Below are positions 1-61,614 of a stretch of DNA of 64,000 bases, in pieces. The stretch's first letter is position 1. Each line of letters begins with the position of its first letter. The translations under genes and the position numbers were made by a program. The notes under the pieces were generated by a model. It did no database searches, was not told where the DNA came from, and was given only the letters and a program-made list of their open reading frames with translations. Where the stretch lies: assembly GCF_056712565.1 (NCBI RefSeq), contig NZ_CM160072.1; one strand, 5' to 3'.

Positions 1-181
1 CACGGTGCTGACTCTGTTTGTCATCGCGGGCGGGGCGACGGCCACCGTCAGCACGAGATTTTCCTGGACGCCCGCCCCCTTTCCCGGTACGCGGGTTGTG
101 GGTACGTTTATCAGAATCATCATCACTGCGGACATACATCACTTTGACCTTGCCGCTTTTACCTTTCATTTCATCGTTCAT
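1..181 (-). CDS. yfiF: tRNA/rRNA methyltransferase YfiF, 5' portion only (gene runs off window start)
   Basis: Reverse-complement translation from ATG at 179-181 gives [21 protein letters not shown]...; position upstream of trxC matches K-12 gene order. The listed 171..374 ORF is a different frame and judged spurious. Confidence 0.6.
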
Positions 182-387
182 GCTTTTCTCCACCAGCGCT
201 GCGCGAAGCGCGCAGATTACCCGAAGTCCGCGCGGTTCGCCATGATTTCGTTCCAAAGCCTGTGTCTATCATACCCATTGAATAAAACAGATTGTTGTCT
301 GGAACAATGTCCCCGATAATATGTAACATATTAGAAACATACCGGCGTCGTTGCCGATAAGTCTCCTTACTCATCCCGAGGTTAGTT

Positions 388-807
388 ATGAATACCGTTT
401 GTACCCATTGTCAGGCCATCAATCGCATTCCCGACGATCGGATCGAAGATGCGGCAAAATGCGGACGCTGCGGTCACGACTTGTTTGACGGAGAGGTGAT
501 TAATGCGACCGGTGAAACGCTCGACAAATTGCTGAAAGATGATCTACCTGTGGTGATCGACTTCTGGGCACCGTGGTGCGGCCCCTGCCGTAATTTCGCA
601 CCAATTTTTGAAGATGTCGCGCAAGAGCGTAGCGGTAAAGTGCGCTTTGTGAAAGTGAATACCGAAGCTGAACGTGAATTGAGCAGCCGCTTTGGTATTC
701 GCAGTATTCCGACGATCATGATTTTCAAAAATGGTCAGGTTGTCGACATGCTTAATGGCGCAGTGCCGAAAGCGCCGTTCGATAGCTGGCTGAATGAATC
801 TCTTTAA
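388..807 (+). CDS. trxC: thioredoxin 2
   Basis: 139 aa; N-terminal zinc-finger CxxC pairs (CTHC, CGRC) plus WCGPC thioredoxin active site. Confidence 0.95.
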
Positions 808-875
808 TCTTACCGGGGCGCATCTTGTGCCCCGTTTTCTCCTCTGCGACAATGGCGTTTTTTCGACGCTCCCTT

Positions 876-1574
876 ATGACCGAAAACGCTGTTCTCCAGT
901 TACGCGCCGAGCGTATTGCGCGTGCAACACGTCCTTTTCTTGCCCGCGGTAATCGCGTTCGTCGCTGCCAACGCTGTCTTTTGCCAGAGAAATTATGTCT
1001 CTGTTCGACAATTACCCCAGCACAAGCAAAAAGTCGCTTCTGTTTGCTGATGTTCGACACCGAGCCAATGAAGCCCAGTAATACCGGGCGTCTGATTGCT
1101 GATATTTTGCCTGATACCGTTGCGTTTCAATGGTCGCGTACCGAACCCTCGCAAGATTTGCTGGATCTGGTGCAAAACCCGGACTATCAGCCAATGGTGG
1201 TCTTTCCCGCTTCGTATGCTGATGAGCAACGGGAAGTGATCTTCACACCACCTGCCGGTAAGCCTCCGCTATTTATCATGCTCGATGGTACCTGGCCAGA
1301 AGCTCGCAAGATGTTTCGTAAAAGTCCGTATCTGGATAATCTTCCCGTCATTTCCGTCGATCTTTCTCGGCTTTCTGCCTATCGCCTGCGTGAAGCCCAG
1401 GCTGAAGGCCAATATTGTACTGCCGAGGTAGCCATCGCACTGTTAGATATGGCCGGCGATACCAGGGCGGCGACAGGGTTAGGCGAGCATTTTACCCGCT
1501 TTAAAACACGCTATCTGGCAGGAAAAACGCAACATCCGGGAAGCATCACAGCAGAACAGTTAGAAAGCGTTTAA
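876..1574 (+). CDS. tapT: DTW-domain tRNA-uridine aminocarboxypropyltransferase (YfiP/TapT)
   Basis: ORF 825..1574; start placed at internal Met (MTENAVLQ...) to give ~232 aa; DTW-like motif region (LDGTWPEARKM). Confidence 0.8.
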   Translation: MTENAVLQLRAERIARATRPFLARGNRVRRCQRCLLPEKLCLCSTITPAQAKSRFCLLMFDTEPMKPSNTGRLIADILPDTVAFQWSRTEPSQDLLDLVQNPDYQPMVVFPASYADEQREVIFTPPAGKPPLFIMLDGTWPEARKMFRKSPYLDNLPVISVDLSRLSAYRLREAQAEGQYCTAEVAIALLDMAGDTRAATGLGEHFTRFKTRYLAGKTQHPGSITAEQLESV

Positions 1575-1605
1575 AATCATTCGGTCACTTCTGCGGGAGA
1601 CCGGT

Positions 1606-4266
1606 ATGAGTCAGCGAGGACTGGAAGCACTACTGCGACCAAAATCGATTGCGGTAATTGGCGCATCGATGAAACCCAATCGCGCAGGTTACCTGATGAT
1701 GCGTAACCTGCTGGCGGGAGGCTTTAACGGACCGGTACTCCCGGTGACGCCAGCCTGGAAAGCGGTGTTGGGTGTGTTGGCCTGGCCGGATATTGCCCGC
1801 TTGCCCTTTACACCCGACCTTGCGGTTTTATGTACCAATGCCAGCCGTAATCTTGCTCTTCTGGAAGAGCTCGGCGAGAAAGGCTGTAAAACCTGCATTA
1901 TTCTTTCCGCCCCGGCATCGCAACACGAAGATCTCCGCGCCTGCGCCCTGCGCCATAACATGCGCCTGCTAGGACCAAACAGTCTGGGCTTACTGGCTCC
2001 CTGGCAAGGTCTGAATGCCAGCTTTTCACCTGTGCCGATTAAACGCGGCAAGCTGGCGTTTATTTCGCAATCGGCTGCTGTCTCCAACACCATCCTCGAC
2101 TGGGCGCAACAGCGTGAGATGGGCTTTTCCTACTTTATTGCGCTCGGCGACAGCCTGGATATCGACGTTGATGAATTGCTCGACTATTTGGCGCGCGACA
2201 GTAAAACCAGCGCCATCCTGCTCTATCTCGAACAATTAAGTGATGCGCGACGTTTTGTTTCGGCGGCCCGTAGCGCCTCACGTAATAAACCGATTCTGGT
2301 GATTAAAAGCGGACGTAGCCCGGCGGCTCAACGTCTGTTGAACACCACGGCAGGAATGGATCCGGCGTGGGATGCAGCTATTCAGCGTGCCGGTTTGTTG
2401 CGGGTACAGGACACCCACGAACTGTTTTCGGCGGTGGAAACCCTTAGCCATATGCGCCCGCTGCGTGGCGACCGGTTGATGATTATCAGCAACGGTGCTG
2501 CGCCTGCCGCGCTGGCGCTGGATGCCTTATGGTCACGCAATGGCAAGCTGGCAACGCTAAGCGAAGAAACCTGCCAGAAACTGCGCGATGCACTGCCAGG
2601 GCATGTGGCAATCTCTAACCCGCTCGATCTGCGCGATGACGCCAGCAGCGAGCATTATGTCAAAACGCTGGACATTCTGCTCCACAGCCAGGATTTTGAT
2701 GCGCTGATGGTTATTCATTCGCCCAGCGCCGCTGCTCCCGCAACAGAAAGCGCGCAAGTATTAATTGAAGCGGTAAAGCATCATCCCCGCAGCAAATATG
2801 TCTCTTTGCTGACGAACTGGTGCGGCGAGCACTCCTCGCAAGAGGCACGACGTTTATTCAGCGAAGCCGGGCTGCCGACCTACCGTACTCCGGAAGGAAC
2901 CATCACTGCTTTTATGCATATGGTCGAGTACCGGCGTAATCAGAAGCAACTACGCGAAACGCCGGCGTTGCCCAGCAATCTGACTTCCAATACCGCAGAA
3001 GCGCATCTTCTGTTGCAACATGCGATTGCCGAAGGGGCTACGTCGCTCGATACCCATGAAGTTCAGCCCATCCTGCAAGCGTATGGTATGAATACTCTCC
3101 CTACCTGGATTGCCAGTAATAGCACCGAAGCGGTACATATTGCCAAACAGATTGGCTATCCGGTGGCACTGAAATTGCGCTCGCCGGATATTCCACATAA
3201 ATCGGAAGTTCAGGGCGTCATGCTCTACCTACGTACAGCCAATGAAGTCCAGCAAGCGGCAAACGCTATTTTCGATCGCGTAAAAATGGCCTGGCCGCAG
3301 GCGCGGGTCCACGGCCTGTTGGTGCAAAGTATGGCTAACCGTGCTGGCGCTCAGGAGTTGCGGGTTGTGGTTGAGCACGATCCGGTTTTCGGGCCGTTAA
3401 TCATGCTGGGTGAAGGCGGTGTGGAGTGGCGTCCTGAAGATCAAGCCGTCGTCGCACTGCCGCCGCTGAACATGAACCTGGCCCGCTATCTGGTTATTCA
3501 GGGGATCAAAAGTAAAAAGATTCGTGCACGCAGTGCGCTACGCCCATTGGATGTTGCAGGCTTGAGCCAGCTTCTGGTGCAGGTTTCCAACTTGATTGTC
3601 GATTGCCCGGAAATTCAGCGTCTGGATATTCATCCTTTGCTGGCTTCTGGCAGTGAATTTACCGCGCTGGATGTCACGCTGGATATCGCGCCGTTTGAAG
3701 GTGATAACGAGAGCCGGCTGGCTGTGCGCCCTTATCCGCATCAGCTGGAAGAATGGGTAGAATTGAAAAACGGTGAACGCTGCTTGTTCCGCCCGATTTT
3801 GCCAGAAGATGAGCCACAGCTTCAGCAATTCATTTCGCGAGTCACCAAAGAAGATCTTTATTACCGCTACTTTAGCGAGATCAACGAATTTACCCATGAA
3901 GATTTAGCCAACATGACGCAGATCGACTACGATCGGGAAATGGCATTTGTAGCGGTACGACGAATTGATCAAACGGAAGAGATCCTCGGCGTCACACGTG
4001 CGATCTCCGACCCTGATAACATCGATGCCGAATTTGCCGTGCTGGTTCGCTCGGATCTCAAAGGGTTAGGCTTAGGTCGACGCTTAATGGAAAAGTTGAT
4101 TACCTATACGCGAGATCACGGACTACAACGTCTGAATGGTATTACGATGCCAAACAATCGTGGCATGGTGGCGCTGGCCCGCAAGCTCGGGTTTAACGTT
4201 GATATCCAGCTCGAAGAGGGGATCGTTGGGCTTACGCTAAATCTTGCCCAGCGCGAGGAATCATGA
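1606..4266 (+). CDS. patZ: protein lysine acetyltransferase (NDP-forming acyl-CoA synthetase-like + GNAT)
   Basis: 886 aa ORF; CoA-binding N-terminus, C-terminal GNAT-like region; synteny trxC-yfiP-yfiQ-pssA. Confidence 0.9.
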   Translation: MSQRGLEALLRPKSIAVIGASMKPNRAGYLMMRNLLAGGFNGPVLPVTPAWKAVLGVLAWPDIARLPFTPDLAVLCTNASRNLALLEELGEKGCKTCIILSAPASQHEDLRACALRHNMRLLGPNSLGLLAPWQGLNASFSPVPIKRGKLAFISQSAAVSNTILDWAQQREMGFSYFIALGDSLDIDVDELLDYLARDSKTSAILLYLEQLSDARRFVSAARSASRNKPILVIKSGRSPAAQRLLNTTAGMDPAWDAAIQRAGLLRVQDTHELFSAVETLSHMRPLRGDRLMIISNGAAPAALALDALWSRNGKLATLSEETCQKLRDALPGHVAISNPLDLRDDASSEHYVKTLDILLHSQDFDALMVIHSPSAAAPATESAQVLIEAVKHHPRSKYVSLLTNWCGEHSSQEARRLFSEAGLPTYRTPEGTITAFMHMVEYRRNQKQLRETPALPSNLTSNTAEAHLLLQHAIAEGATSLDTHEVQPILQAYGMNTLPTWIASNSTEAVHIAKQIGYPVALKLRSPDIPHKSEVQGVMLYLRTANEVQQAANAIFDRVKMAWPQARVHGLLVQSMANRAGAQELRVVVEHDPVFGPLIMLGEGGVEWRPEDQAVVALPPLNMNLARYLVIQGIKSKKIRARSALRPLDVAGLSQLLVQVSNLIVDCPEIQRLDIHPLLASGSEFTALDVTLDIAPFEGDNESRLAVRPYPHQLEEWVELKNGERCLFRPILPEDEPQLQQFISRVTKEDLYYRYFSEINEFTHEDLANMTQIDYDREMAFVAVRRIDQTEEILGVTRAISDPDNIDAEFAVLVRSDLKGLGLGRRLMEKLITYTRDHGLQRLNGITMPNNRGMVALARKLGFNVDIQLEEGIVGLTLNLAQREES

Positions 4267-4379
4267 GTAAGGTACTGGAAATGTTGACCACTTAATCGGG
4301 ACTGGTGTTATTATTGCCCGCTTATGTCGTCTGCATTGCACAGAGGACCCTTCAATGAACAGAGAAGAAATGCACTGTG

Positions 4380-5735
4380 ATGTTGTCAAAATTTAAGCGT
4401 AATAAACATCAACAACACCTTGCCCAACTACCCAAGATTTCTCAATCAGTTGATGATGTCGATTTCTTTTACGCTCCCGCCGACTTCCGGGAGACGCTGC
4501 TGGAAAAAATAGCCAGCGCGAAGCAGCGCATTTGCATTGTCGCCCTGTATCTCGAACAGGATGACGGTGGCAAAGGCATTCTGAACGCGTTGTATGAGGC
4601 TAAAAGGCAGCGTCCGGAACTGGATGTGCGGGTGCTGGTCGACTGGCATCGTGCACAACGTGGACGCATTGGCGCTGCGGCATCTAACACTAACGCTGAC
4701 TGGTACTGCCGCATGGCGCAGGAAAATCCGGGCGTAGATGTTCCGGTTTATGGCGTTCCAATCAATACCCGTGAAGCCCTTGGTGTTCTGCACTTTAAAG
4801 GCTTTATCATCGACGATAGCGTACTTTATAGCGGTGCCAGCCTGAACGATGTTTACCTGCATCAGCACGATAAATATCGCTACGACCGTTATCATCTGAT
4901 CCGTAACCGTAAGATGTCAGACATTATGTTTGAATGGGTTACACAGAATATTATGAATGGCCGCGGCGTTAATCGTCTGGATGATGTTAATCGGCCAAAA
5001 AGCCCGGAAATCAAGAACGATATTCGTCTGTTCCGCCAGGAGCTGCGTGATGCCGCTTATCATTTCCAGGGCGATGCCGACAACGATCAGCTTTCCGTAA
5101 CGCCGCTAGTGGGGCTGGGGAAATCGAGTCTGTTGAACAAGACCATTTTCCATCTTATGCCTTGTGCCGAGCAGAAACTAACCATCTGTACGCCATACTT
5201 CAACCTGCCAGCAATCCTTGTGCGCAATATTATCCAGTTGCTGCGCGAAGGGAAAAAGGTCGAAATTATTGTTGGTGATAAAACCGCGAATGACTTCTAC
5301 ATTCCGGAAGATGAACCTTTCAAGATAATTGGCGCATTGCCTTATCTCTATGAGATCAATCTGCGTCGTTTCCTGAGCCGTTTGCAGTATTACGTCAATA
5401 CTGACCAGCTAGTGGTTCGGTTATGGAAAGATGACGACAACACCTATCACCTGAAAGGGATGTGGGTTGATGATAAGTGGATGTTGATCACCGGTAATAA
5501 CCTGAACCCACGCGCCTGGCGTCTGGATCTGGAAAACGCCATTTTGATCCACGATCCACAACTGGAGCTTGCGCCGCAGCGAGAGAAAGAACTGGAGCTG
5601 ATCCGCGAGCATACCACCATCGTTAAGCACTATCGCGATCTGCAAAGTATTGCCGATTATCCGGTGAAGGTTCGTAAACTCATCCGCCGTTTGCGCCGTA
5701 TCCGCATCGACCGATTAATTAGCCGCATCCTGTAA
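4380..5735 (+). CDS. pssA: CDP-diacylglycerol--serine O-phosphatidyltransferase
   Basis: 451 aa from MLSKFKRNK...; two PLD-like HxK motifs (LHFKGFIIDD, YHLKGMWVDD). Confidence 0.95.
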   Translation: MLSKFKRNKHQQHLAQLPKISQSVDDVDFFYAPADFRETLLEKIASAKQRICIVALYLEQDDGGKGILNALYEAKRQRPELDVRVLVDWHRAQRGRIGAAASNTNADWYCRMAQENPGVDVPVYGVPINTREALGVLHFKGFIIDDSVLYSGASLNDVYLHQHDKYRYDRYHLIRNRKMSDIMFEWVTQNIMNGRGVNRLDDVNRPKSPEIKNDIRLFRQELRDAAYHFQGDADNDQLSVTPLVGLGKSSLLNKTIFHLMPCAEQKLTICTPYFNLPAILVRNIIQLLREGKKVEIIVGDKTANDFYIPEDEPFKIIGALPYLYEINLRRFLSRLQYYVNTDQLVVRLWKDDDNTYHLKGMWVDDKWMLITGNNLNPRAWRLDLENAILIHDPQLELAPQREKELELIREHTTIVKHYRDLQSIADYPVKVRKLIRRLRRIRIDRLISRIL

Positions 5736-10427: not shown

Positions 10428-10547
10428 ATGCCTGGCAGTTCCCTACTCTCGCATGGGGAGACCCCACACTACCATCGGCGCTACGGCGTTTCACTTCTGA
10501 GTTCGGCATGGGGTCAGGTGGGACCACCGCGCTAAGGCCGCCAGGCA
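10428..10547 (-). rRNA. rrfG: 5S ribosomal RNA
   Basis: Reverse complement matches E. coli 5S (TGCCTGGCGGCC...CTGCCAGGCAT), 120 nt. Confidence 0.95.
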
Positions 10548-10640
10548 AATTCTGTTTCATTAACCCGCTTGTCGCCGGTTAATCTAATCTGTATCAGGCT
10601 GAAAATCTTCTCTCATCCGCCAAAACATCTTCGGCGTTGT

Positions 10641-13544
<2,904 letters not shown>

Positions 13545-13737
13545 TCACAACCCGAAGATGTTTCTTGCGATTCATCATCGTGTTGCGAAAATTTGAGAGA
13601 CTCACGAACAACTCTCGTTGTTCAGTGTTTCAATTTTCAGCTTGATCCAGATTTTTAAAGAGCAAATATCTCAAACATCACCCGAAGATGAGTTTTGAGA
13701 TATTAAGGCAGGTGACTTTCACTCACAAACCAGCAAG

Positions 13738-13813
13738 TGGCGTCCCCTAGGGGATTCGAACCCCTGTTACCGCCGTGAAAGGGCGGTGTCCTGGGCCTCT
13801 AGACGAAGGGGAC
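13738..13813 (-). tRNA. gltW: tRNA-Glu (spacer tRNA)
   Basis: Reverse complement GTCCCCTTCGTCTAGAGGCCCAGGACACCGCCCTTTCACGGCGGTAACAGGGGTTCGAATCCCCTAGGGGACGCCA. Confidence 0.95.
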
Positions 13814-13898
13814 GTATCAGTCTGCTTCGCAAGACGCCTTGCTTTTCACTTTCTATCAGACAATCTGTGTGAGCACTGCAAAGTACGCTTCTTTAAGG

Positions 13899-15440
<1,542 letters not shown>

Positions 15441-15881: not shown

Positions 15882-18455
15882 TTACTGGACGGCGACGATC
15901 CGGTCTTCATTAACTTCCAGGCGAATAACTTTACCCGGAACCAATTCACCAGACAGTATTTGCTGTGCCAGCGGGTTTTCGATCTGCTGCTGGATAGCAC
16001 GCTTCAGAGGACGTGCACCATAGACCGGATCGTAACCGTTCTCGCTCAGCAGTTTCAGCACCTCGTCAGAAATGTGGATTTCATAACCACGTTCTTCCAG
16101 ACGTTTGTACAGACGTTTCAACTGAATCTGCGCAATCGACGCAATGTGTTGTTCACCCAGCGGATGGAAGACGACGACTTCATCGATACGGTTAATGAAT
16201 TCCGGACGGAAGTTATGGCTTACCACACCGAGCACCAGCTCTTTCATGTGCGCATAATCCAGTTCACCAAAACGTTCCTGAATCAGATCAGAACCGAGGT
16301 TAGAGGTCATAATGACGACCGTATTACGGAAGTCGACCGTTCTCCCCTGCCCGTCAGTCAGACGCCCATCATCCAGTACCTGCAACAGAATGTTGAAGAC
16401 ATCCGGATGCGCTTTTTCCACTTCATCCAGCAGGATGACGGAATACGGACGACGACGCACCGCTTCGGTCAGATAGCCACCTTCTTCATAACCAACATAT
16501 CCCGGAGGCGCACCAACCAGACGAGACACCGAGTGTTTCTCCATAAACTCGGACATATCAATACGGACCATCGCCTCGTCGCTATCAAACATAAAGTTCG
16601 CCAGCGCCTTACAAAGCTCTGTTTTCCCCACACCCGTTGGGCCGAGGAACAGGAATGAACCAATCGGGCGATTTGGATCCGCCAGCCCCGCACGGCTACG
16701 ACGAATAGCGTTAGATACCGCATCAACCGCTTCGTTCTGACCAATAACGCGATGATGCAGTTCTTGCTCCATACGCAGCAGTTTTTCGCGCTCGCTTTCC
16801 ATCATGCGAGAAACCGGAATTCCCGTCCAACGCGCCAGCACTTCAGCAATTTCGGCATCGGTCACTTTATTACGCAACAGACGCATAGTTTTGCCTTCGA
16901 GCTGCGTTGCGGCTTCCAGTTGCTTTTCCAGTTCCGGGATTTTGCCGTATTGCAGTTCAGACATCCGCGCCAGGTCACCCACACGGCGAGCCTGTTCAAT
17001 AGCGATTTTCGCCTGTTCCAGTTCCGCTTTAATGGTCTGCGTACCAGAAAGCGAGGCTTTCTCTGCTTTCCACTCTTCTTCTAACTCGGAGTACTGACGT
17101 TCTTTGTCGCTCAGTTCTTCGTTGAGCATATCCAGGCGTTTTTTACTGGCTTCATCAGACTCTTTCATTAACGCCTGTTGTTCCAGTTTGAGCTGGATGA
17201 TACGACGATCGAGTCGGTCGAGTTCTTCTGGTTTTGAGTCAATCTGCATACGAATGCTGGATGCTGCTTCATCGATCAGGTCGATGGCTTTATCCGGCAG
17301 CTGACGGTCAGCAATGTAGCGATGAGACAACGTCGCCGCTGCAACAATTGCCGGGTCAGTAATTTGCACATGGTGGTGCAGCTCGTAACGTTCTTTCAGG
17401 CCACGCAGAATCGCAATGGTATCTTCAACAGAAGGCTCGGCAACAAACACTTTCTGGAAACGACGTTCCAGCGCAGCATCTTTTTCGATGTACTGGCGAT
17501 ATTCGTCAAGCGTCGTGGCACCTACGCAGTGCAATTCACCACGCGCCAGCGCCGGTTTCAGCATGTTTCCGGCGTCCATTGCGCCATCGGCTTTACCCGC
17601 GCCGACCATGGTATGTAATTCGTCGATAAACAGGATGACGTTGCCTTCCTGTTTGGCAAGATCGTTAAGTACGCCTTTTAAACGTTCTTCAAACTCACCG
17701 CGATATTTCGCCCCAGCCACCAGCGCGCCCATATCCAGCGCCAGTACGCGGCGGCCTTTCAACCCTTCGGGCACTTCGCCGTTGATAATACGCTGCGCCA
17801 GACCTTCAACGATGGCAGTCTTACCGACGCCTGGTTCACCAATCAGTACCGGGTTATTTTTAGTACGACGTTGCAGCACCTGAATGGTACGGCGAATTTC
17901 TTCATCACGACCAATCACCGGATCGAGTTTACCCTGTTCGGCTCGTTCGGTAAGGTCGATGGTATATTTTTTCAAAGCCTGACGTTGGTCTTCAGCACCT
18001 TGATCGTTCACGCTTTCACCTCCACGCATTTGTTCAATCGCTTGAGTAATGTTGGCGGTGGTCGCCCCTGCTGCTTTCAGGATGTCGGCCAGCGTGCCGC
18101 GAGACTCAAGTGCCGCCAGAACGAACAGTTCTGACGAGATAAAGTTATCACCACGTTTTTGCGCCAGCTTGTCGCAAAGATTAAGAACGCGCACCAGATC
18201 CTGTGATGGCTGGACATCACCACCAGTACCTTCAACCTGCGGTAAACGATTTAATGCCTGATTGATATCTGTGCGCAACTGGCCAGCATTTATGCCAGCG
18301 GATGTTAATAAAGGACTAACCGAACCCCCTTCCTGATTCAGCAGGGCGCTCATTAAATGAAGTGGTTCGATGAATTGGTTGTCGTGCCCGAGTGCAAGTG
18401 ATTGGGCATCGGCAAGAGCAAGCTGGAATTTATTAGTAAGACGATCCAGACGCAT
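15882..18455 (-). CDS. clpB: ClpB disaggregase (AAA+ chaperone)
   Basis: ORF 15882..18467; start trimmed to [11 protein letters not shown]...; two Walker A motifs ([16 protein letters not shown]). Confidence 0.95.
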
Positions 18456-18489
18456 AACTCCTCCCATAACGGATCAAAGTTGCTACTGG

Positions 18490-18525
18490 AGATTAAATGA
18501 GGTCATCCCTCAATTATTCAAGGTT
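18490..18525 (-). promoter_or_regulatory. candidate sigma-32 heat-shock promoter of clpB
   Basis: Minus-strand CTTGAA ... CCTCATTTA upstream of clpB. Confidence 0.45.
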
Positions 18526-18584
18526 ATTGACCAGATTAATGTGAAAAGAAAATCACGCGTACCGGATCGTCTTGATTCTTTAGG

Positions 18585-23215: not shown

Positions 23216-23318
23216 TCCTTTATATTGAGTGTATCGCCAACGCGCCTTCGGGCGCGTTTTTTGTTGACAGCGTGAAAACAGTACGGGTACTGTACTAAAG
23301 TCACTTAAGGAAACAAAC

Positions 23319-23366
23319 ATGAAACACACACCGTTTTTCTTCGCATTCTTTTTTACCTTCCCCTGA
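23319..23366 (+). CDS. pheL: pheA leader peptide
   Basis: 15-codon ORF MKH(T)PFFFAFFFTFP with seven Phe codons immediately upstream of the attenuator. Confidence 0.9.
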   Translation: MKHTPFFFAFFFTFP

Positions 23367-23413
23367 ATGGGAGGCGTTTCGTCGTGTGAAACAGAATGCG
23401 AAGACGAACAATA

Positions 23414-23442
23414 AGGCCTCCCAAATCGGGGGGCCTTTTTTA
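23414..23442 (+). terminator. pheA attenuator terminator
   Basis: AGGCCTCCC-AAATC-GGGGGGCCT hairpin followed by TTTTTTATT. Confidence 0.85.
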
Positions 23443-23464
23443 TTGATAACAAAAAGGCAACACT

Positions 23465-29826: not shown

Positions 29827-29850
29827 AACACGAGCAAACAGACAAAAAAA

Positions 29851-29872
29851 GGGCCAGCCAATTGGCCAGCCC
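29851..29872. terminator. hairpin downstream of yfiB
   Basis: GGGCCAGCC-AATT-GGCCAGCCC perfect palindrome with flanking A/T runs. Confidence 0.6.
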
Positions 29873-29904
29873 TTCTTAACAGGATGTCGCTTAAGCGAAA
29901 TCTT

Positions 29905-29917
29905 AGTTAAGACGCTC
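29905..29917. repeat. attL core
   Basis: Identical 13-mer at 61266-61278; flanking bases partially similar. Confidence 0.7.
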
Positions 29918-29998: not shown

Positions 29999-31048
29999 TT
30001 ATGCAACCTCTGCCGCCATATTGTCGCCAACATACAGCGATAACGGATTAAGGGTTACAGCTTGTTCAAGGTGGTCAGGAGCAAAGTGTGCATACTTCAT
30101 TGTTTCTCGAATATTGGCATGCCCGAGAATTTTCTGCAGTACCAGTATATTCCCGCCGTTCATCATAAAATGCGCACCAAAAGTATGACGCAAAACGTGC
30201 GTCTTCTGCCCTTCCGTCAATTCAATATTCGTTAGTTTGAGCATCTTCTTAAACTCCTGATAGCAGGGTTTAAACATTCTGCCTTGACGTACGGACAACT
30301 CGTCGTACAGCCATTTAGGAATAGGAACTGTGCGATTCTTCTTACCTTTGGTTTTGGTGAACGTCAGTTTATATGGAGAAAGTTGAGGGCGGGTCAATCT
30401 CTCCGCTTCCCCCCATCGAGCGCCGGTTGCAAGGCACACCTTAACAATCATGGTGAGGTCTTCTTTGCCGTATTGCTCGCAGGCTCGAAACAGCTCCGGG
30501 AGCTGAGACAAAGTTAGCCAGGACATTTCTTTCTCAGCCTCTTTGAATACTCGGATCCCATCAAGTGGATTGGGTAGGCTCCACTCCCCTAACCGGCGGA
30601 GCTCATTAAACACTGCTTCTAGGTATTGTTGTTCGCGATTGACGGTTATAGGTTTGGCGATCCATTTCGAGGGGTCTTTATGATAACCGTTGTCTATTTC
30701 ACCACGTAATCGACGGTCACGATAATGAGCCCAGTCTTTCGCGGTAAGGCGAGATGCAATCGGGTCACCAAGCCCATTACATACGATTTGAAGCTTTGCT
30801 AACCTCGACTTACTGGCGACTAACGCTTGACCGTGCAAATTGTGCCAAAGCTGAATAATCTCGCTTAAGCGTCGGCGGTCTTCTTTCTTGCCAAGCCACG
30901 GCTTATCTTCACTCTCGCTTTTGGTAAATGCTTCGAATGCCTCGGCCTCACCTTTGGTATTGAATTGCCGACGTATACGCCGCCCTTCTCGACCATTTGG
31001 ATAGAGCTCGCATAACCATTTGCCATTTTTTTGCTTACTTACAGTCAT
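29999..31048 (-). CDS. int: phage integrase (tyrosine recombinase, 186/P2 Int family)
   Basis: 349 aa; MTVSKQKNGKWLCELYPNG...; catalytic region HVLRHTF...LGHANIRETMKYAHF. Confidence 0.9.
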   Translation of the reverse strand: MTVSKQKNGKWLCELYPNGREGRRIRRQFNTKGEAEAFEAFTKSESEDKPWLGKKEDRRRLSEIIQLWHNLHGQALVASKSRLAKLQIVCNGLGDPIASRLTAKDWAHYRDRRLRGEIDNGYHKDPSKWIAKPITVNREQQYLEAVFNELRRLGEWSLPNPLDGIRVFKEAEKEMSWLTLSQLPELFRACEQYGKEDLTMIVKVCLATGARWGEAERLTRPQLSPYKLTFTKTKGKKNRTVPIPKWLYDELSVRQGRMFKPCYQEFKKMLKLTNIELTEGQKTHVLRHTFGAHFMMNGGNILVLQKILGHANIRETMKYAHFAPDHLEQAVTLNPLSLYVGDNMAAEVA

Positions 31049-31070
31049 AATGTCACCGAGGCAACTCTAA

Positions 31071-31409
31071 TTATTCGCAAAGTGCTGTTGCGGCATCCAT
31101 TACAGGATCCAAAGGAATTTTTACACCTGCATACTCTGGACTGTCTTTCCAAACAGCATCAATATTGCTCCCCTCAAGCTTTCCAGACTTTACTCCATCA
31201 ATAGCAAAACCATTTAATGGGTATCGGTCATCAGTTGCTTTGTCGTATACAAAGGCATACTTACCGTTAACGCAAGACACCGTAGCTTTTTCAAAAGTTA
31301 ACGGCCAATCCTCACCAAACTTAGCGCCATCTAAATCCTGTGTTTTTTCAGCGGCTAAGGAGCCAAAAGAAAAGGTAAGAAGCATAGCTAAAAAGAGTTT
31401 ACGTTTCAT
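31071..31409 (-). CDS. small secreted protein of unknown function (cargo gene between int and repressor)
   Basis: Start at MKRKLFLAMLLTFSFGSLAA (signal peptide); two Cys in mature part; overlaps the repressor gene's 3' end by ~10 bp. Confidence 0.6.
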   Translation of the reverse strand: MKRKLFLAMLLTFSFGSLAAEKTQDLDGAKFGEDWPLTFEKATVSCVNGKYAFVYDKATDDRYPLNGFAIDGVKSGKLEGSNIDAVWKDSPEYAGVKIPLDPVMDAATALCE

Positions 31410-31417
31410 AATTTCCC

Positions 31418-32278
31418 TTATACGTGTTTTTCCAATGTGAAAACTACAACCCCGGCAGGCGTAATGTCGGTAATGTTGCATTCAAACTCAGCAGACTTAT
31501 TTGACAACCTGACTTTTCCACCAGGTAAACGAATTACATCAAAAACATCAAGAGCGCCGTCGATATCAATTAACCAGCGACCATTACTTATATTCGAAGC
31601 AGAACAGTCGACAAGCCAAGAGGCAGCTACACCGTCAACAAAAATCAATTCCCCTGAGTTAGAAGGAATCATTGAGGGGTCAGGATGCCACGTTCCTGCA
31701 TCCTTAAGCTCACCAGATTCAAGACGAGATTTTTTAATAGAAAAACCAGATGTGACATCTTCCCTGTTAGCTCGCATTTGCCCCTTGCCTGTTGCTAACC
31801 ATTCCAGTGACGTATCGGTATCAAGAGCGCATGTAACAACAACATCACCAGGGAAAAAATCTCGCCTTACCCATGTGCTAATTGTGCCAGAGGAAATGCC
31901 GAGCAAATCACCGAGCTCCTTTTGCATGGTAAAGCCATACGCATCAAGAATCCTACGCAAAACGGTTTTACCACCATTCGTCATAATCTCGTCATAAAGC
32001 TCTTTGCCTTTTAACTTGCAACTGGCTCGCTCGTGATTTGCATTTGCAAGCTCTCCATTTACAAGCCAATTGATATCAGCTCCCGTGTCAAGACAACACC
32101 TAACTATGACATTGCCAGGTATTGCATCACGCTGAACCCAGCCGCTAACGCTGTGTTTAGCGATACCTAGCAGGTCAGCCAAATCCTTTTGCATCTTGAC
32201 CCCATAGGCTGACATTAAGCGTTCCAATACGCCGTTCGTTGCACTAACACGCCACTGTACATCAAGCTCAGAACTCAT
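31418..32278 (-). CDS. 186 CI-like immunity repressor with tandemly duplicated N-terminal DNA-binding domain
   Basis: 286 aa; two homologous ~60-aa segments (LERLMSAYGVKMQKDLADLLGIAKHSVSGWVQRD... and LRRILDAYGFTMQKELGDLLGISSGTISTWVRRD...); C-terminus resembles 186 CI (GRWLIDIDGA...LPGGKVRL...FEC). Confidence 0.8.
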   Translation of the reverse strand: MSSELDVQWRVSATNGVLERLMSAYGVKMQKDLADLLGIAKHSVSGWVQRDAIPGNVIVRCCLDTGADINWLVNGELANANHERASCKLKGKELYDEIMTNGGKTVLRRILDAYGFTMQKELGDLLGISSGTISTWVRRDFFPGDVVVTCALDTDTSLEWLATGKGQMRANREDVTSGFSIKKSRLESGELKDAGTWHPDPSMIPSNSGELIFVDGVAASWLVDCSASNISNGRWLIDIDGALDVFDVIRLPGGKVRLSNKSAEFECNITDITPAGVVVFTLEKHV

Positions 32279-32546
32279 AAAAACCCCTACAGATAATTTT
32301 ATGGGTGTTTACAGAAAACTTTTTACGATCTATAGTGGCATTCATCGACCAAGATGCACACCACTGCACTACATTTCAAACAACAGGAGATAATGCGATA
32401 TGTCAGATGCAAAATCAATCTCGACGCACGACTCGCAAAACTCACAAAATCAAACTGTGCTGCTAGATCCAACACAGTTTGATGCCATCGTTACCGCCAT
32501 GCTGCCAGCTCTACAGACAATGATTCGCTCCGCTATGTCAGACACG

Positions 32547-32771
32547 ATGACTGTGAAAGACTTCGCCGCTACTCGCGGTGTTAGCGAGCGTCTGGTCTGG
32601 CAATGGCTCGATGAGGGAGTTCTTCTCAAAGCTCCGACCAAAGACTTTTCCAACAAAGAGGAAGCTGCTAAACGAAGCCGAACCCTCGTAAACGTAAAAG
32701 CATGGCGCGATAAGCTGACTCAACAAGCGATTGATTGTCGCTACATCGACCAGCGCACCGCTCTTAACTGA
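32547..32771 (+). CDS. Apl/Cox-like excisionase / switch regulator
   Basis: Divergent from repressor; HTH segment MTVKDFAATRGVSERLVWQWLDEGVLLKAP; start uncertain (ORF opens at 32400). Confidence 0.6.
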   Translation: MTVKDFAATRGVSERLVWQWLDEGVLLKAPTKDFSNKEEAAKRSRTLVNVKAWRDKLTQQAIDCRYIDQRTALN

Positions 32772-32803
32772 ATTTGATTATGCAAGTTAGAGGGAATTTA
32801 ACC

Positions 32804-33313
32804 ATGTTTGATTTTCAGGTTTCCAAACATCCCCACTATGACGAAGCATGCCGCATTTTCGCACAGCGTCACAACATGGCGAAGCTGGCCGAGCGTGCAG
32901 GTATGAACGTTCAAACGTTACGTAACAAGCTCAACCCGGAACAGCCTCACCAGTTCACGCCGTCTGAATTGTGGCTGCTGACTGACCTGACCGAAGACTC
33001 AACCCTCATTGATGGTTTTTTAGCGCAGATTCACTGCCTACCATGCGTGCCGGTTAATGAGTTGGCTAAAGACAAATTGCAGTCTTATGTCATGCGCGCA
33101 ATGCGTGAACTCGGCGAACTGGCGAGCGGCGCGGTATCTGATGAACGTCTGACCATTGCCCGTAAGCACAACATGATTGAAAGCGTTAACTCCGGCATTC
33201 GCATGTTGTCATTGTCGGCTCTGGCGCTGCATGCACGTCTGCAGACTAATCCAGCTATGTCGAGCGTGGTCGATACCATGAGCGGTATTGGCGCATCGTT
33301 TGGTCTGATTTGA
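32804..33313 (+). CDS. CII-like lysogeny-establishment regulator
   Basis: ~169 aa from MFDFQVSKHPHYDEACRIFAQRHNMAKLAERAGMNVQTLRNKL (HTH); position after apl as in 186. Confidence 0.65.
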   Translation: MFDFQVSKHPHYDEACRIFAQRHNMAKLAERAGMNVQTLRNKLNPEQPHQFTPSELWLLTDLTEDSTLIDGFLAQIHCLPCVPVNELAKDKLQSYVMRAMRELGELASGAVSDERLTIARKHNMIESVNSGIRMLSLSALALHARLQTNPAMSSVVDTMSGIGASFGLI

Positions 33314-36862: not shown

Positions 36863-37093
36863 ATGAGAATCAATATCACGTTGGATAAAGAGCAAAAATT
36901 AGGGCAACAGATCATTGATGCTTTTCAGAATGAAATAACACATCGAGTACAATGCGTTTTTCCTGCAACAAAAGTTAACGTTAAGAAAGGGTCAATGACT
37001 GGTGTAGAGGCTATCGGATTCGATAAAGAGGCGGACAGAGAAACATTAGGCAGCATATTACAAGAGATTTGGGAAGACGATAGCTGGCGTTAA
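36863..37093 (+). CDS. DinI-family protein
   Basis: 76 aa; MRINITLDK...QEIWEDDSW resembles E. coli DinI (MRIEVTIAK...QETWESADDW). Confidence 0.8.
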   Translation: MRINITLDKEQKLGQQIIDAFQNEITHRVQCVFPATKVNVKKGSMTGVEAIGFDKEADRETLGSILQEIWEDDSWR

Positions 37094-37576: not shown

Positions 37577-38518
37577 TTAATTTATTTTTAATGAATGGTA
37601 ATCTCGTGAGTTGACCGAAGATTTGAGATAACTGCAATCATTAACCGACAGTATTGCCGCTAATAGGCGACATACCAGTGCCTGCATTTGCAGCAATATA
37701 TCGTTACCATATTGACTGTTGTTAACACTTGAGAAACCAAGCGGTTGACCAAAAAAAATAGCCTCATGAAAATTATCATTGCGGATGCCAGAAATGTTTT
37801 TTTTACCTGACACCCATGTGGGGATTGATAACCCATAAATTTTGCACATCCACTTTAATCGCTTGTAATGATTTGGCGGTTTTTTATCAGGAGCCTTGTC
37901 ATGCTCAGCCCACGACAAAGCAAAGCACCCATCAAGTGCCATGTAAAGATACTGGAATTTTTCAAAAGAAAGGTATTGTGGGTTTTGAGATAAGAATAGT
38001 GCATGCACCACTGCCGCAATTCTTTTGGGGGAGTGCGCATCCTTATGTTTGCCATTTATATAATTAAGAGCCAGTTCTATGACTTCTTTTTCAGAGCATC
38101 CAACGAGAATAAAGTCGGTTAACTTAGTGGGCTTGATAGTGGTTGCATCTAAAAAACCAGCGTCAGTGGTTGTCAATCTTATTCCCTTGAAAAAAGAAAG
38201 GCACCACACAATAAAGTTGAGAGTTTCTAACGAGGATGTATTTTTTAATTTTAGTGTGTGCGTTTTGGGCATACTGAATACTCGGTGACTATAAGGCATT
38301 GTGGATATGCCACCATTAAGGTTATATACATCTTGGTTTCCAGGGTATATCCAACCTTTCACAACGTTTTTATCATTATTAACACGCTCCACTTTCTCAT
38401 TGAGACCAGGTAAAGTAAGCAAAGAAAATTGTTCAGTCTCAATGTTAACTTCTACTGGATAGTATCCAAACTCCGACATAATCTCATTGGGTTGCTGTTC
38501 GTCAACTTCACCTTGCAT
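37577..38518 (-). CDS. hypothetical 313-aa protein at the cos-proximal old/tin position
   Basis: Long AT-rich ORF; GGAG RBS; 16-bp perfect palindrome CTCGATAATTATCGAG at 38541-38556 upstream; no motif recognised. Confidence 0.7.
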   Translation of the reverse strand: MQGEVDEQQPNEIMSEFGYYPVEVNIETEQFSLLTLPGLNEKVERVNNDKNVVKGWIYPGNQDVYNLNGGISTMPYSHRVFSMPKTHTLKLKNTSSLETLNFIVWCLSFFKGIRLTTTDAGFLDATTIKPTKLTDFILVGCSEKEVIELALNYINGKHKDAHSPKRIAAVVHALFLSQNPQYLSFEKFQYLYMALDGCFALSWAEHDKAPDKKPPNHYKRLKWMCKIYGLSIPTWVSGKKNISGIRNDNFHEAIFFGQPLGFSSVNNSQYGNDILLQMQALVCRLLAAILSVNDCSYLKSSVNSRDYHSLKIN

Positions 38519-38993: not shown

Positions 38994-39998
38994 CTAATTT
39001 ACATGTATGTAGAGTTCACCGTCGCCAGACCAATCGGGACACTCTAAAACAAGCCCAAACTGCTTGAATATTTCATCAATGATTATTGTTATCTCCCGAA
39101 AATCACCAAAACCTGTAATGTGCTGGTCATTAAACTTCCCATAAAGATTCTGAAAAGCAATGCCTAATTCTGATAATTGATATCTTATCTTTGAGTTGGA
39201 TAGTGTAAGGGATAGCTTTGGATCGTATTCTTTAATATTGATGTTTAGAGAATGGACATAACCCATCGCATAAGCATAAGAGTTGATGATTAGCCTGATA
39301 CGTTTTTTTACTTCGAGATACATGTCATTCAGAGAAATATTACCGTACTTATAACCCCAGATGAGTTTTTCAATCTCGTCAGATACTTCATTTACAACAG
39401 TGTCAAGATTCTCTAAAAATAAATCGATAGTTTCTTGAGGGGCAGACCCCGAAGACATGTAATTAGCGAGATATTCAGACCATGCACGCGTGGCTGAGAT
39501 AAGAAGCGCGCTACCATACTCGTTGACTGTAAAGTTTTGGGCTAAGCATGTTAGTAAGTTTTTTTCATGTACGTGCACTAATTCATGGTGAATGCGATGG
39601 ATGACTGCGAGGTATCCTTCTTCTTTCAGTTTTAAGAAGCTACCATCATTGAAAAGCTCAACAAAAAAATCAATCGATAGCACAAGGGTATATTCTTCAC
39701 ATAGCCCATCATTGCCAATTTTTGTTACTAACTGCCCGACGGCTGCGCCCTGTTTACTATTGGTAAATGAACTAGGGGATTTGTGTTGGTAAGAGGATGT
39801 TACCTTTTGAAGAGCTTCACTGAAGTTATAGGAAACAATCACGCATTTTAATTTGGAGATATCAAGATTGAGATTTTTTGTTAAAGCTCGGATAGCTTCT
39901 AGTGTGAAATTACCGATATTATTTGCTTCTTGCTCAGTAGCGAAACCTTCGAGGGTTATTTTAAAATCAGTTTCCAAAATATTAATCTCCGCGCCCAT
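38994..39998 (-). CDS. hypothetical 334-aa protein with HExxH zinc-metallopeptidase-like motif (cargo between cos and portal)
   Basis: AT-rich ORF; motif VIHRIHHELVHVHEKN; own sigma70-like promoter upstream. Confidence 0.7.
   Translation of the reverse strand: MGAEINILETDFKITLEGFATEQEANNIGNFTLEAIRALTKNLNLDISKLKCVIVSYNFSEALQKVTSSYQHKSPSSFTNSKQGAAVGQLVTKIGNDGLCEEYTLVLSIDFFVELFNDGSFLKLKEEGYLAVIHRIHHELVHVHEKNLLTCLAQNFTVNEYGSALLISATRAWSEYLANYMSSGSAPQETIDLFLENLDTVVNEVSDEIEKLIWGYKYGNISLNDMYLEVKKRIRLIINSYAYAMGYVHSLNINIKEYDPKLSLTLSNSKIRYQLSELGIAFQNLYGKFNDQHITGFGDFREITIIIDEIFKQFGLVLECPDWSGDGELYIHVN

Positions 39999-61263: not shown

Positions 61264-61614
<351 letters not shown>

What the first reader, a model, noticed from the sequence alone, without database searches (positions are those of the whole stretch)
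31071..31409. Secreted small protein gene positioned to be co-expressed with the repressor in lysogens
A signal-peptide-bearing ~112-aa protein with two cysteines is encoded between int and the repressor. Its start overlaps the repressor gene's 3' end, so it would be expressed from the lysogenic transcript. That is typical of lysogenic-conversion or superinfection-exclusion genes that act in the envelope.
Basis: partly seen in the sequence, partly recalled or inferred. Interest (0 to 1): 0.45.

Follow-up and report, generated by a model that had tools for sequence, protein, structure and literature searches.

The report
Prophage periplasmic YebY-like protein gene
The small gene between the repressor and integrase of this E. 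coli P2/186-like prophage is real and encodes an exported YebY-family (DUF2511) protein, made with the repressor in lysogens; it is already annotated and its location has been noted in print, but its function is untested.

Summary
The ORF at 31071-31409 (minus strand, 112 aa) is a real gene. It is PSP3 gp28/orf28, a YebY/DUF2511 protein: Pfam E 2.7e-17, and the AF2 model matches E. coli YebY (7N0J) at TM 0.88-0.90. It has a Sec-type signal peptide and the family's two cysteines.

It does not overlap cI. An 8-nt spacer follows the cI stop, and 22 nt precede int. No terminator or convincing promoter lies between them. The pL hexamers sit at the same offsets as in phage 186. The gene is therefore embedded in the cI-int lysogenic operon.

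Phage 186 has nothing in this slot. Some relatives carry a different secreted two-cysteine protein there, or extra genes. All 41 IMG/VR relatives show cI-yebY-int. More distant YebY homologues also follow phage repressors.

The gene is AT-rich. Its alleles shuffle independently of int and cI, under purifying selection.

Function is untested. The best positional analogue is the periplasmic exclusion protein Glo of vibriophage K139, which is not homologous. Modulation of copper import, as reported for host YebY, is the main rival.

Novelty is modest: the gene is annotated and its location was noted in 2021.

The parts
31071..31409 (-). yebY-like gene (PSP3 gp28/orf28 homologue). 112-aa precursor; predicted 93-aa, 10.1-kDa, pI 4.4 mature periplasmic protein with a C46-C111 pair.
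   Evidence: ORF. Pfam PF10709 E 2.7e-17. phrog_2950. 7N0J E 3.7e-7. AF2 pLDDT 88 with Foldseek TM 0.88-0.90 to 7N0J. dN/dS 0.08-0.27. Mature-protein properties.
31353..31409 (-). Codons 1-19: predicted Sec/SPase I signal peptide (MKRKLFLAMLLTFSFGSLA | AEK).
   Evidence: Hydropathy and charge. Conserved A/S-X-A/S site and variable h-region in homologues. Low pLDDT for residues 1-20. No SignalP run.
31410..31420 (-). cI stop codon (TAA, 31420-31418) plus the 8-nt spacer. An AAGGGA Shine-Dalgarno-like sequence (31419-31414) lies in front of the yebY-like ATG.
   Evidence: Sequence read directly. The same tight spacing occurs in 36 of 41 IMG/VR relatives.
31418..32278 (-). CI immunity repressor, PSP3 type: two N-terminal Phage_CI_repr HTH domains plus the CI C-terminal domain. 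First gene of the lysogenic operon.
   Evidence: phrog_4 E 2e-59. Pfam domains of close relatives. 98% identical to PSP3 CI.
29999..31048 (-). Tyrosine integrase, last gene of the lysogenic operon. It starts 22 nt after the yebY-like stop.
   Evidence: phrog_1 E 2e-74. Junction sequence.
32390..32418 (-). Candidate pL (lysogenic promoter): -35 TTGATT (32418-32413), 17-nt spacer, -10 CATTAT (32395-32390).
   Evidence: 8/12 consensus match. Same offsets from the apl/cox-like ATG (+13..+18 and -10..-5) as the annotated pL of phage 186. Inferred, not shown experimentally.
32308..32336 (+). pR-like lytic promoter (TTTACA-17-TATAGT), facing pL.
   Evidence: Promoter scan, 10/12.
32400..32771 (+). 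Apl/Cox-like first gene of the lytic operon.
   Evidence: phrog_3554, with a weak match to phrog_575 (Cox-like). Annotated as Cox in phage Midge.
32804..33313 (+). CII-like activator. In 186, CII activates pE, which also drives the cI-int operon. The mechanical ORF begins at TTG 32774; the homologues' ATG is at 32804.
   Evidence: phrog_101 E 2.8e-57. 169-aa annotation in relatives. 186 annotation of pE.
29905..29917 (.). Candidate attL core (AGTTAAGACGCTC), repeated at 61266-61278.
   Evidence: Longest shared word between the two prophage ends. Only 13 bp, so this is tentative.
61266..61278 (.). Candidate attR core. It overlaps the stop codon of the downstream host ORF at 61264-61611 (minus strand), which is rplS by my recollection of the E. 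coli gene order.
29846..29877 (-). Strong hairpin plus T-run just beyond attL (the yfiB terminator, bidirectional). It is the likely end of the lysogenic transcript in the integrated state.
   Evidence: Terminator scan: 14-bp stem, 7 GC pairs.

Best explanation
The gene encodes a Sec-exported, disulfide-stabilised periplasmic protein of about 10 kDa with the YebY/DUF2511 fold. It is carried as accessory cargo inside the lysogenic (pL/pE) operon of a PSP3-like (186-type, Eganvirus) prophage, in the order cI, yebY-like, int.

Its start lies 8 nt after the cI stop, with no promoter or terminator of its own. It is therefore made whenever CI and Int are made, that is, constitutively in lysogens and during establishment of lysogeny.

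It belongs to a deep, phage-borne branch of the YebY family that is repeatedly found immediately downstream of P2-like phage repressors. This branch is separate from the chromosomal yobA-yebZ-yebY (AZY) copper branch.

Most likely mechanism (inferred, about 35-40%): it acts in the periplasm of the lysogen as a binding or blocking protein that protects the lysogen against incoming phages. This would be superinfection exclusion at an early, envelope step. The analogue is the unrelated periplasmic protein Glo, which occupies the same cI-int slot in vibriophage K139. A possible mode of action is binding the periplasmic face of an inner-membrane component, in the way host YebY damps the importer YebZ.

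Shown here: identity, fold, operon position, slot variability and allele shuffling.
Inferred: export, expression in lysogens, and function.
For: Family and fold:
- Pfam PF10709, E 2.7e-17.
- 7N0J hit; both cysteines align with YebY's disulfide pair, Cys48 and Cys113 (disulfide shown in PMC8689200).
- AF2 model pLDDT 88. Foldseek top hits are 7N0J (TM 0.88-0.90 normalised by target, rmsd 1.5 A), then MlbQ.

Export:
- Signal-peptide features.
- E. coli YebY is experimentally periplasmic, and most family members have signal peptides (PMC8689200).

Operon position:
- Gaps of 8 nt and 22 nt, with no minus-strand terminator between cI and int.
- pL hexamers at the same offsets as 186 pL.
- The 186 and K139 records annotate cI...int as the lysogenic operon.

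Cargo behaviour:
- In 186, cI and int abut with nothing between them.
- E. coli E21 has a 98%-identical int but carries a different 134-aa protein, with a signal peptide and two Cys, in the slot.
- Other relatives add that gene, or a bPH/SHOCT gene, next to yebY.
- GC is 41% (GC3 31%), against 52% for the prophage.

Conservation of the linkage:
- 41 of 41 IMG/VR loci are cI-yebY-int.
- Homologues at about 34-58% identity (P0019, P0020, P0022, P0031) sit directly after a CI-type repressor. P0028, P0034 and P0037 (pairwise identity not computed) sit directly after a phage-type HTH repressor.

Allele shuffling:
- Window versus L014: int 100%, apl 99%, cI 75%, yebY 49%.
- Midge versus L014: cI 93%, yebY 47%.

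Analogy:
- K139 Glo is a periplasmic phage-exclusion protein lying between cI and int (PMC3952083).
- The cI-int interval of K139-like phages is a described defence hotspot (PMC9122126).
Against: - No functional test exists for any phage-borne YebY homologue.
- There is no hit to PADLOC defence models, and none in NCBIfam.
- Glo is not homologous (hhalign probability 5%). The exclusion argument is therefore positional analogy only.
- The family-wide motifs (W35, YPLN, SGK, D-x-P, the two Cys) are shared with host YebY. [quoted passage not shown]
- dN/dS is below 1 everywhere measured. There is no direct signature of positive selection. Allele diversity could simply reflect different host genera.
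- Expression from pL is inferred by homology to 186 and has not been measured.
- The signal peptide was not scored with a trained predictor.
Confidence: 0.6

Rival explanations
1. Lysogenic conversion of copper handling. The prophage protein acts as host YebY does. It damps copper uptake through the inner-membrane importer YebZ (with YobA), so it changes copper stress and copper-dependent mar activation in the lysogen.
For: Same family and fold as E. coli YebY. Family-wide motifs are retained. YebY co-expression lowers YebZ-dependent copper accumulation (PMC11923076). E. coli hosts carry the AZY operon, so the partner proteins would be present (established knowledge).
Against: - Only 32% identical to E. 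coli YebY, and in a clade separate from the AZY-type YebYs.
- Never linked to copC/copD in the phage contexts seen.
- In L017/L018 the host AZY yebY and the prophage copy coexist at 32% identity.
- The mature protein has 0 His, 1 Met and only the two disulfide Cys. YebY itself binds copper only weakly, and only after reduction (PMC8689200).
- Strong allele diversity between phages with identical int is unexpected for a protein that docks on a conserved host transporter.
Confidence: 0.17
2. Periplasmic sequestration of an antimicrobial peptide or toxin (bacteriocin, microcin, host cationic peptide). This would resemble the proposed role of the family member MlbQ in lantibiotic self-resistance, and would give the lysogen a competitive advantage.
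For: The model also matches MlbQ (2MVO/6QFP; E 3e-4, TM 0.49-0.70). MlbQ is proposed to bind the lantibiotic NAI-107 (PMC8689200). The mature protein is acidic (pI 4.4), as are most phage-borne homologues, which would suit cationic ligands. The variable positions fall mostly in turns and loops.
Against: MlbQ is a distant actinobacterial lipoprotein encoded with ABC transporters, and no such partners are present here. No bacteriocin genes lie nearby. Acidity is weak evidence.
Confidence: 0.1
3. The gene has a phage-intrinsic role and is not a host-benefit gene. For example, it may tune Int translation or expression through its position between cI and int, or act during lysis or infection.
For: The tight spacing to both neighbours is conserved. 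The gene is retained in all PSP3-like loci sampled.
Against: 186 and the E21 prophage manage without it. An exported, disulfide-bonded protein under purifying selection on its whole mature domain is not needed as a mere spacer. The gene is transcribed with the repressor, not with the lytic genes.
Confidence: 0.08

Closest known systems
E. coli YebY (PDB 7N0J), the DUF2511/PF10709 protein of the yobA-yebZ-yebY (AZY) operon
   Same: Homologous: phmmer E 3.7e-7, 32% identity. Same length, signal peptide, aligned cysteine pair and fold (TM 0.88-0.90).
   Different: The phage gene is not in a copC/copD operon and falls in a separate clade. It lies in a prophage lysogenic operon. The role of YebY itself is only partly known: it diminishes YebZ copper import (PMC11923076).
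PSP3 gp28/orf28 and the RefSeq 'DUF2511 domain-containing protein' of PSP3-like phages (SEN1, Midge 'putative periplasmic protein', SW9, vB_EcoM-613R3)
   Same: Orthologues, 72-100% identical, at the identical position between cI and int. Hadley et al. 2021 already noted yebY 'between XerD recombinase and phage CI repressor' in Enterobacteriaceae.
   Different: Nothing differs. This is the same gene, and none of these copies has been studied functionally.
Glo of Vibrio cholerae phage K139
   Same: A small (137-aa) exported protein with two cysteines. It is encoded between cI and int of a P2-related phage, on the PL lysogenic transcript, and is annotated or cited as a soluble periplasmic phage-exclusion protein.
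   Different: No sequence or profile similarity beyond the signal peptide. K139 has an additional orf2 between cI and glo.
MlbQ (PDB 2MVO/6QFP), lantibiotic self-resistance lipoprotein of Microbispora
   Same: Same Pfam family and fold, with the disulfide in the same place (PMC8689200).
   Different: It is a lipoprotein with a long linker, Gram-positive, and encoded with ABC transporters in a lantibiotic cluster.
Classical prophage morons and exclusion genes (lambda rexAB, bor and lom; P2 old, tin and fun; phi80 cor; T5 llp)
   Same: Accessory genes expressed from the prophage, of atypical composition and variably present among relatives. Many act in the envelope (established knowledge).
   Different: This gene has no promoter or terminator of its own; it is embedded between cI and int. 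It is also not at the known E. coli P2 hotspot, gpA-gpQ (PMC9122126).

Membership tests
YebY / DUF2511 (Pfam PF10709) | Significant match to the family profile | tested here: met
   PF10709 i-Evalue 2.7e-17, 63.4 bits, model positions 5-87 of 87. phmmer to 7N0J, E 3.7e-7.
YebY / DUF2511 (Pfam PF10709) | Two strictly conserved cysteines that form the Cys48-Cys113 disulfide of YebY | tested here: met
   C46 and C111 align with the YebY cysteines. They are conserved in 40 of 41 unique subfamily sequences. Disulfide formation itself was not tested.
YebY / DUF2511 (Pfam PF10709) | Fold: four-stranded antiparallel sheet packed with helices | tested here: met
   AF2 pLDDT 88. Foldseek to 7N0J: TM 0.88-0.90 (normalised by target), rmsd 1.5 A. 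MlbQ is the next hit.
YebY / DUF2511 (Pfam PF10709) | Extracytoplasmic location (signal peptide) | tested here: met
   The n/h/c regions and the -3/-1 rule are conserved across homologues. This is a heuristic only; no SignalP run and no experiment.
AZY-operon YebY (copper import module) | Encoded with copC (yobA) and copD (yebZ) | tested here: not met
   The neighbours are cI and int. The same holds in all phage-type loci. The protein lies in a clade separate from EcYebY.
AZY-operon YebY (copper import module) | Modulates YebZ-dependent copper uptake | not testable with these tools
   Needs reporter or ICP-MS assays. The mature protein has no His and one Met.
Moron (Hendrix-type autonomous accessory gene) | Present or absent among otherwise similar phages; atypical base composition | tested here: met
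   The slot is empty in 186 and holds a different gene in E21. GC 41% and GC3 31%, against 52% for the prophage.
Moron (Hendrix-type autonomous accessory gene) | Own promoter and terminator | tested here: not met
   Intergenic gaps are 8 nt and 22 nt. There is no terminator, and only weak 8/12 promoter-like matches, none usefully placed.
Superinfection-exclusion protein of the K139 Glo type | Exported protein encoded between cI and int on the lysogenic transcript | tested here: met
Superinfection-exclusion protein of the K139 Glo type | Homology to Glo | tested here: not met
   hhalign probability 5%, with only the signal peptide aligned. Glo has no DUF2511 hit.
Superinfection-exclusion protein of the K139 Glo type | Blocks infection by other phages at an early step | not testable with these tools
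   Needs efficiency-of-plating, adsorption and injection assays.
Catalogued anti-phage defence systems (PADLOC-DB 2.0) | Match to a defence-protein model | tested here: not met
   No family at E <= 0.01.

The most novel reading that the evidence does not exclude
The YebY/DUF2511 fold may be, to a large extent, a phage-borne, repressor-linked periplasmic 'plug'. On this reading, P2-like prophages make it with CI to block an inner-membrane or periplasmic component that incoming phages need for DNA entry. The chromosomal AZY YebY, which damps the importer YebZ, would be a related or domesticated use of the same blocking mechanism. If so, this gene family would be a widespread, unrecognised class of soluble periplasmic superinfection-exclusion proteins. 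It would also give a functional handle on an orphan domain.
Probability: 0.15. Interest if true: 0.65.

Novelty: new member of a known kind. Interest (0 to 1): 0.33.

Why it matters
If the protein excludes phages or changes envelope or copper physiology, it would be a lysogeny-linked fitness factor. It is carried by about 1% of complete E. coli genomes (67 of 5426) and by many Salmonella: the index lists P0011 in 1924 blocks of the collection.

It would also give a first phage-side function for the orphan DUF2511 domain.

The cI-int junction of enterobacterial 186-type phages would then join the gpA-gpQ hotspot as a second cargo site worth mining. As it stands, this is an annotated gene of unknown function in a predictable place, so the immediate significance is modest.

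Tried and rejected
- The 136-aa ORF from ATG 31481, which would overlap cI. Rejected: all homologues and annotations start at the downstream Met, and the upstream part is cI coding sequence.
- Antisense ORFs at 31165-31440 and 31031-31204 on the plus strand. No support.
- NCBIfam: no hit for the protein.
- PADLOC: no hit for this protein or for the alternative slot genes.
- Foldseek against BFVD viral structures: nothing with E below 0.25.
- Glo homology: none.
- Rfam: no RNA family in the region.
- An own promoter or terminator for the gene: none convincing.
- att repeats of 18 nt or more: none. Only a 13-bp shared word was found.
- Nilsson et al. 2011, on P2-like regulatory regions: no passage about a gene between cI and int among those shown.
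- The primary K139 paper (PMC93736) is not held in the library. Glo's function is therefore cited from the GenBank record and a secondary paper.
- The proteomics paper PMC9927464 lists a 'DUF2511 domain-containing protein' as 2.19-fold up. It cannot be assigned to the prophage copy or the host copy.
- Mapping variable residues onto the 3D model was not possible, because no coordinates are returned.

Full report
**Setting.** The window is E. coli chromosome; the region tested, 29999-32278, is 100% identical to strain SF-468 and several others. It carries an rrn operon, the pheA leader and yfiR-dgcN-yfiB. A prophage of about 31 kb follows yfiB. The prophage's int-cI-apl region (29999-32800) is 99.9% identical to Escherichia phage vB_EcoM-613R3 and 87-90% identical to Salmonella phages PSP3 and SEN1, which are Peduoviridae of the genus Eganvirus, the 186 type. 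The gene order is:
- int, 29999-31048, minus strand;
- the small ORF, 31071-31409, minus strand;
- cI, 31418-32278, minus strand;
- then, diverging on the plus strand, an apl/cox-like gene, cII, fil, a TraR/DksA-like gene and replication gene A.
A 13-bp word, AGTTAAGACGCTC, occurs at both prophage ends (29905 and 61266). It is a tentative att core.

**The observation.** The ORF exists at the stated coordinates and encodes 112 aa with two cysteines. Its N-terminus has three positive charges, a 14-residue hydrophobic stretch and a small-X-small site (S-L-A|A). It has no lipobox. Across homologues the first 19 residues are about twice as variable as the rest, yet stay hydrophobic. The -3/-1 positions stay small in the 15 aligned homologues. 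The AF2 model is disordered up to residue 20 and confident from residue 21. I could not run SignalP.

The claimed overlap with cI is wrong. The cI stop is at 31420-31418 and the ATG is at 31409, so there is an 8-nt spacer, with an AAGGGA Shine-Dalgarno-like sequence across the stop codon. Only an unsupported upstream ATG at 31481 would create an overlap.

**What it is.** The protein matches Pfam DUF2511/YebY (E 2.7e-17), PHROG 2950 and the crystal-structure sequence of E. coli YebY, 7N0J (E 3.7e-7). Both cysteines align with YebY Cys48 and Cys113. An AF2 model (pLDDT 88) superimposes on 7N0J with TM 0.88-0.90 and rmsd 1.5 A. The only other real PDB hit is the lantibiotic-immunity lipoprotein MlbQ. 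Its residues 33-113 agree with the 7N0J chain residues printed, and its numbering agrees with Trp37, Cys48 and Cys113 in PMC8689200.

The gene is PSP3 orf28/gp28. It is annotated 'DUF2511 domain-containing protein' in RefSeq and 'putative periplasmic protein' in phage Midge. Pairwise dN/dS between alleles is 0.08-0.27, so it is a functional coding gene.

**What is already in the literature.**
- Hadley et al. 2021 (PMC8689200) solved the YebY structure. They showed that it is periplasmic with a Cys48-Cys113 disulfide, and that it binds copper only weakly and only after reduction. [quoted passage not shown] That is this very arrangement.
- The 2025 follow-up (PMC11923076) reports that YebY diminishes copper import by YebZ.
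- I found no functional work on the phage copies. Only five papers in the library contain 'DUF2511'.

**Operon position.**
- No terminator-like site lies on the minus strand between cI and int. One lies inside int, which I judged spurious. No promoter of at least 9/12 lies on the minus strand in the scanned region. The 8/12 matches are few and badly placed.
- The best minus-strand candidate has -35 TTGATT (32418-32413) and -10 CATTAT (32395-32390).
- These hexamers lie at exactly the offsets from the apl ATG (+13..+18 and -10..-5) at which the 186 record annotates pL. They face a 10/12 pR-like promoter.
- In 186 the lysogenic operon is cI-int-orf69, driven by pL in lysogens and by the CII-activated pE during establishment.
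I therefore infer, but have not shown, that the small gene is co-transcribed with cI and int in lysogens.

**The slot is a cargo site.**
- In 186, cI and int abut with a 1-nt overlap and nothing between them.
- E. coli E21 has an integrase 98% identical to the window's. Its slot holds a different 134-aa protein (phrog_3807), which also has a signal peptide and two cysteines.
- Other relatives carry that gene plus yebY, or yebY plus a 166-aa bPH/SHOCT protein.
- The yebY-like gene is AT-rich: GC 41% and GC3 31%, against 52% for the prophage.
- It lacks a promoter and terminator of its own, so it is not a textbook autonomous moron.

**Breadth of the linkage.**
- All 41 IMG/VR loci recovered with subfamily motifs have cI upstream and int downstream. 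In 36 of them the spacing is the same tight one.
- 67 of 5426 complete E. coli genomes carry this int region. Every listed row that covers both cI and int has the DUF2511 gene.
- A profile search of 1.84 billion representatives found 1171 family clusters.
- The nearest non-subfamily relatives are P0019, P0020, P0022 and P0031, which are 34-58% identical, together with P0028, P0034 and P0037.
- Each of these seven lies immediately downstream of a phage-type repressor. The repressors seen are long CI, the short 194-aa 186-type CI, a 149-aa HTH_3 protein and a 118-aa HTH protein. Where enough flank is held, the context is that of a P2-like prophage.
- In a rough NJ tree these phage-linked proteins lie apart from the AZY-type YebYs.
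- One member sampled from the large remaining cluster of that tree (P0048) is chromosomal, next to frr and uppS.

**Allele shuffling.** Identity of the four neighbouring proteins is uncoupled:

| Comparison | int | apl | cI | yebY |
|---|---|---|---|---|
| Window vs L014 | 100% | 99% | 75% | 49% |
| Window vs PSP3 | 91% | 76% | 98% | 97% |
| Midge vs L014 | 96% | 97% | 93% | 47% |
| L004 vs L010 | 96% | 96% | 68% | 83% |

Synonymous sites between alleles are saturated. Old, diverged alleles are therefore being exchanged by recombination on both sides of the gene. Within the mature domain, variation concentrates at a dozen positions that fall mostly in turns. A core of about 28 residues is invariant.

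**Mechanism.** Nothing here tests function. I rank the candidates as follows.

1. Periplasmic protection of the lysogen against incoming phages (about 35-40%).
   - It rests on the position in the lysogenic operon and on the independent recruitment of other small secreted proteins to the same slot.
   - It also rests on the allele diversity in otherwise identical backbones.
   - The direct precedent is K139 Glo, a soluble periplasmic exclusion protein encoded between cI and int. Glo is not homologous.
   - Rousset et al. describe the cI-int interval of K139-like phages as a defence hotspot.
2. Modulation of host copper import (about 17%).
   - It is supported by homology to YebY and by the shared motifs.
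   - It is weakened by the separate clade and by the absence of copC/copD linkage.
   - The mature protein has no His or Met ligands.
   - Allele diversity also argues against it.
   - The host copy and the prophage copy coexist at 32% identity in L017/L018.
3. Sequestration of a peptide toxin, by analogy with MlbQ (about 10%).
4. A phage-intrinsic role (about 8%).
The remainder is unknown.

**Verdict.** It is an already annotated member of a known family, and its genomic arrangement is already on record. The modestly new points from this analysis are:
- the slot is empty in 186 and holds different secreted proteins in relatives;
- the repressor-YebY linkage extends deep into the family;
- the alleles shuffle independently of their neighbours.
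Interest is moderate to low unless the exclusion (or 'periplasmic plug') reading is confirmed experimentally.

Noticed in passing
window 37577-38518 (-) and 38994-39998 (-): Two AT-rich ORFs (GC 0.34-0.41; 313 and 334 aa; phrog_5937 and phrog_11743). They lie between replication gene A and portal gene Q, the documented P2 defence hotspot (PMC9122126). Neither has a significant Pfam hit or any PADLOC hit. They are a candidate uncharacterised anti-phage cargo.
   Followed up: partly
window 36863-37093 (+): A 76-aa DinI-like protein (phrog_189, RecA-filament binding) just downstream of gene A in the prophage.
   Followed up: no
L013 4580-4984 (E. coli E21, NZ_CM143892); also L010-L012 4570-4974 and L053 2570-2971: The same cI-int slot holds a different 134-aa protein (phrog_3807, no Pfam hit). 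It has a signal peptide (MKRSIFALALLASFTVAA|QP) and two cysteines. This is a second, unrelated small secreted protein recruited to the slot.
   Followed up: partly
L009 5168-5668; L017-L019; L066-L069 about 3361-3859: A 166-aa bPH_3/GRAM plus SHOCT protein (phrog_2700), with no signal peptide, is inserted between yebY and int in some relatives.
   Followed up: no
L017 and L018 (CP134152.1, GCA_032164335.1) 1-5000: A degraded prophage remnant (int fragment, cI, phage-type yebY, bPH/SHOCT) lies directly next to the host copD-yebY genes. Two yebY paralogues, only 32% identical, therefore sit 3.5 kb apart. This may bear on how phages and hosts exchange this gene, or it may be coincidence.
   Followed up: partly
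window 31418-32278 (-): The PSP3-type CI is 286 aa with a duplicated N-terminal Phage_CI_repr HTH domain. The 186-type CI is 192-194 aa. Both types are followed by a yebY homologue in different prophages.
   Followed up: no
P0001 (cluster representative; 101 member sequences, E. coli): This otherwise 94%-identical homologue ends ...ALWE instead of ...ALCE, so it lacks the second conserved cysteine. In YebY, loss of either Cys abolished expression (PMC8689200). It may therefore be a null allele.
   Followed up: no
window 29905-29917 and 61266-61278: A 13-bp direct repeat at the prophage ends. The right copy overlaps the stop codon of the host ORF at 61264-61611 (rplS by my recollection of the gene order), so the phage appears to integrate at the 3' end of that gene, between it and yfiB.
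   Followed up: partly
L026 195-1142: A distant YebY homologue (P0029) follows a 198-aa protein with weak WYL/BRCT hits. K139 also has a BRCT-domain orf2 between cI and glo. This is a possible recurring partner in the slot.
   Followed up: no
window 18436-18574 (-), 23318-23443 (+), 10430-15440 (-): Ordinary host features: the RyfD sRNA, the Phe leader, and an rrn operon with an internal tRNA and StyR-44.
   Followed up: no
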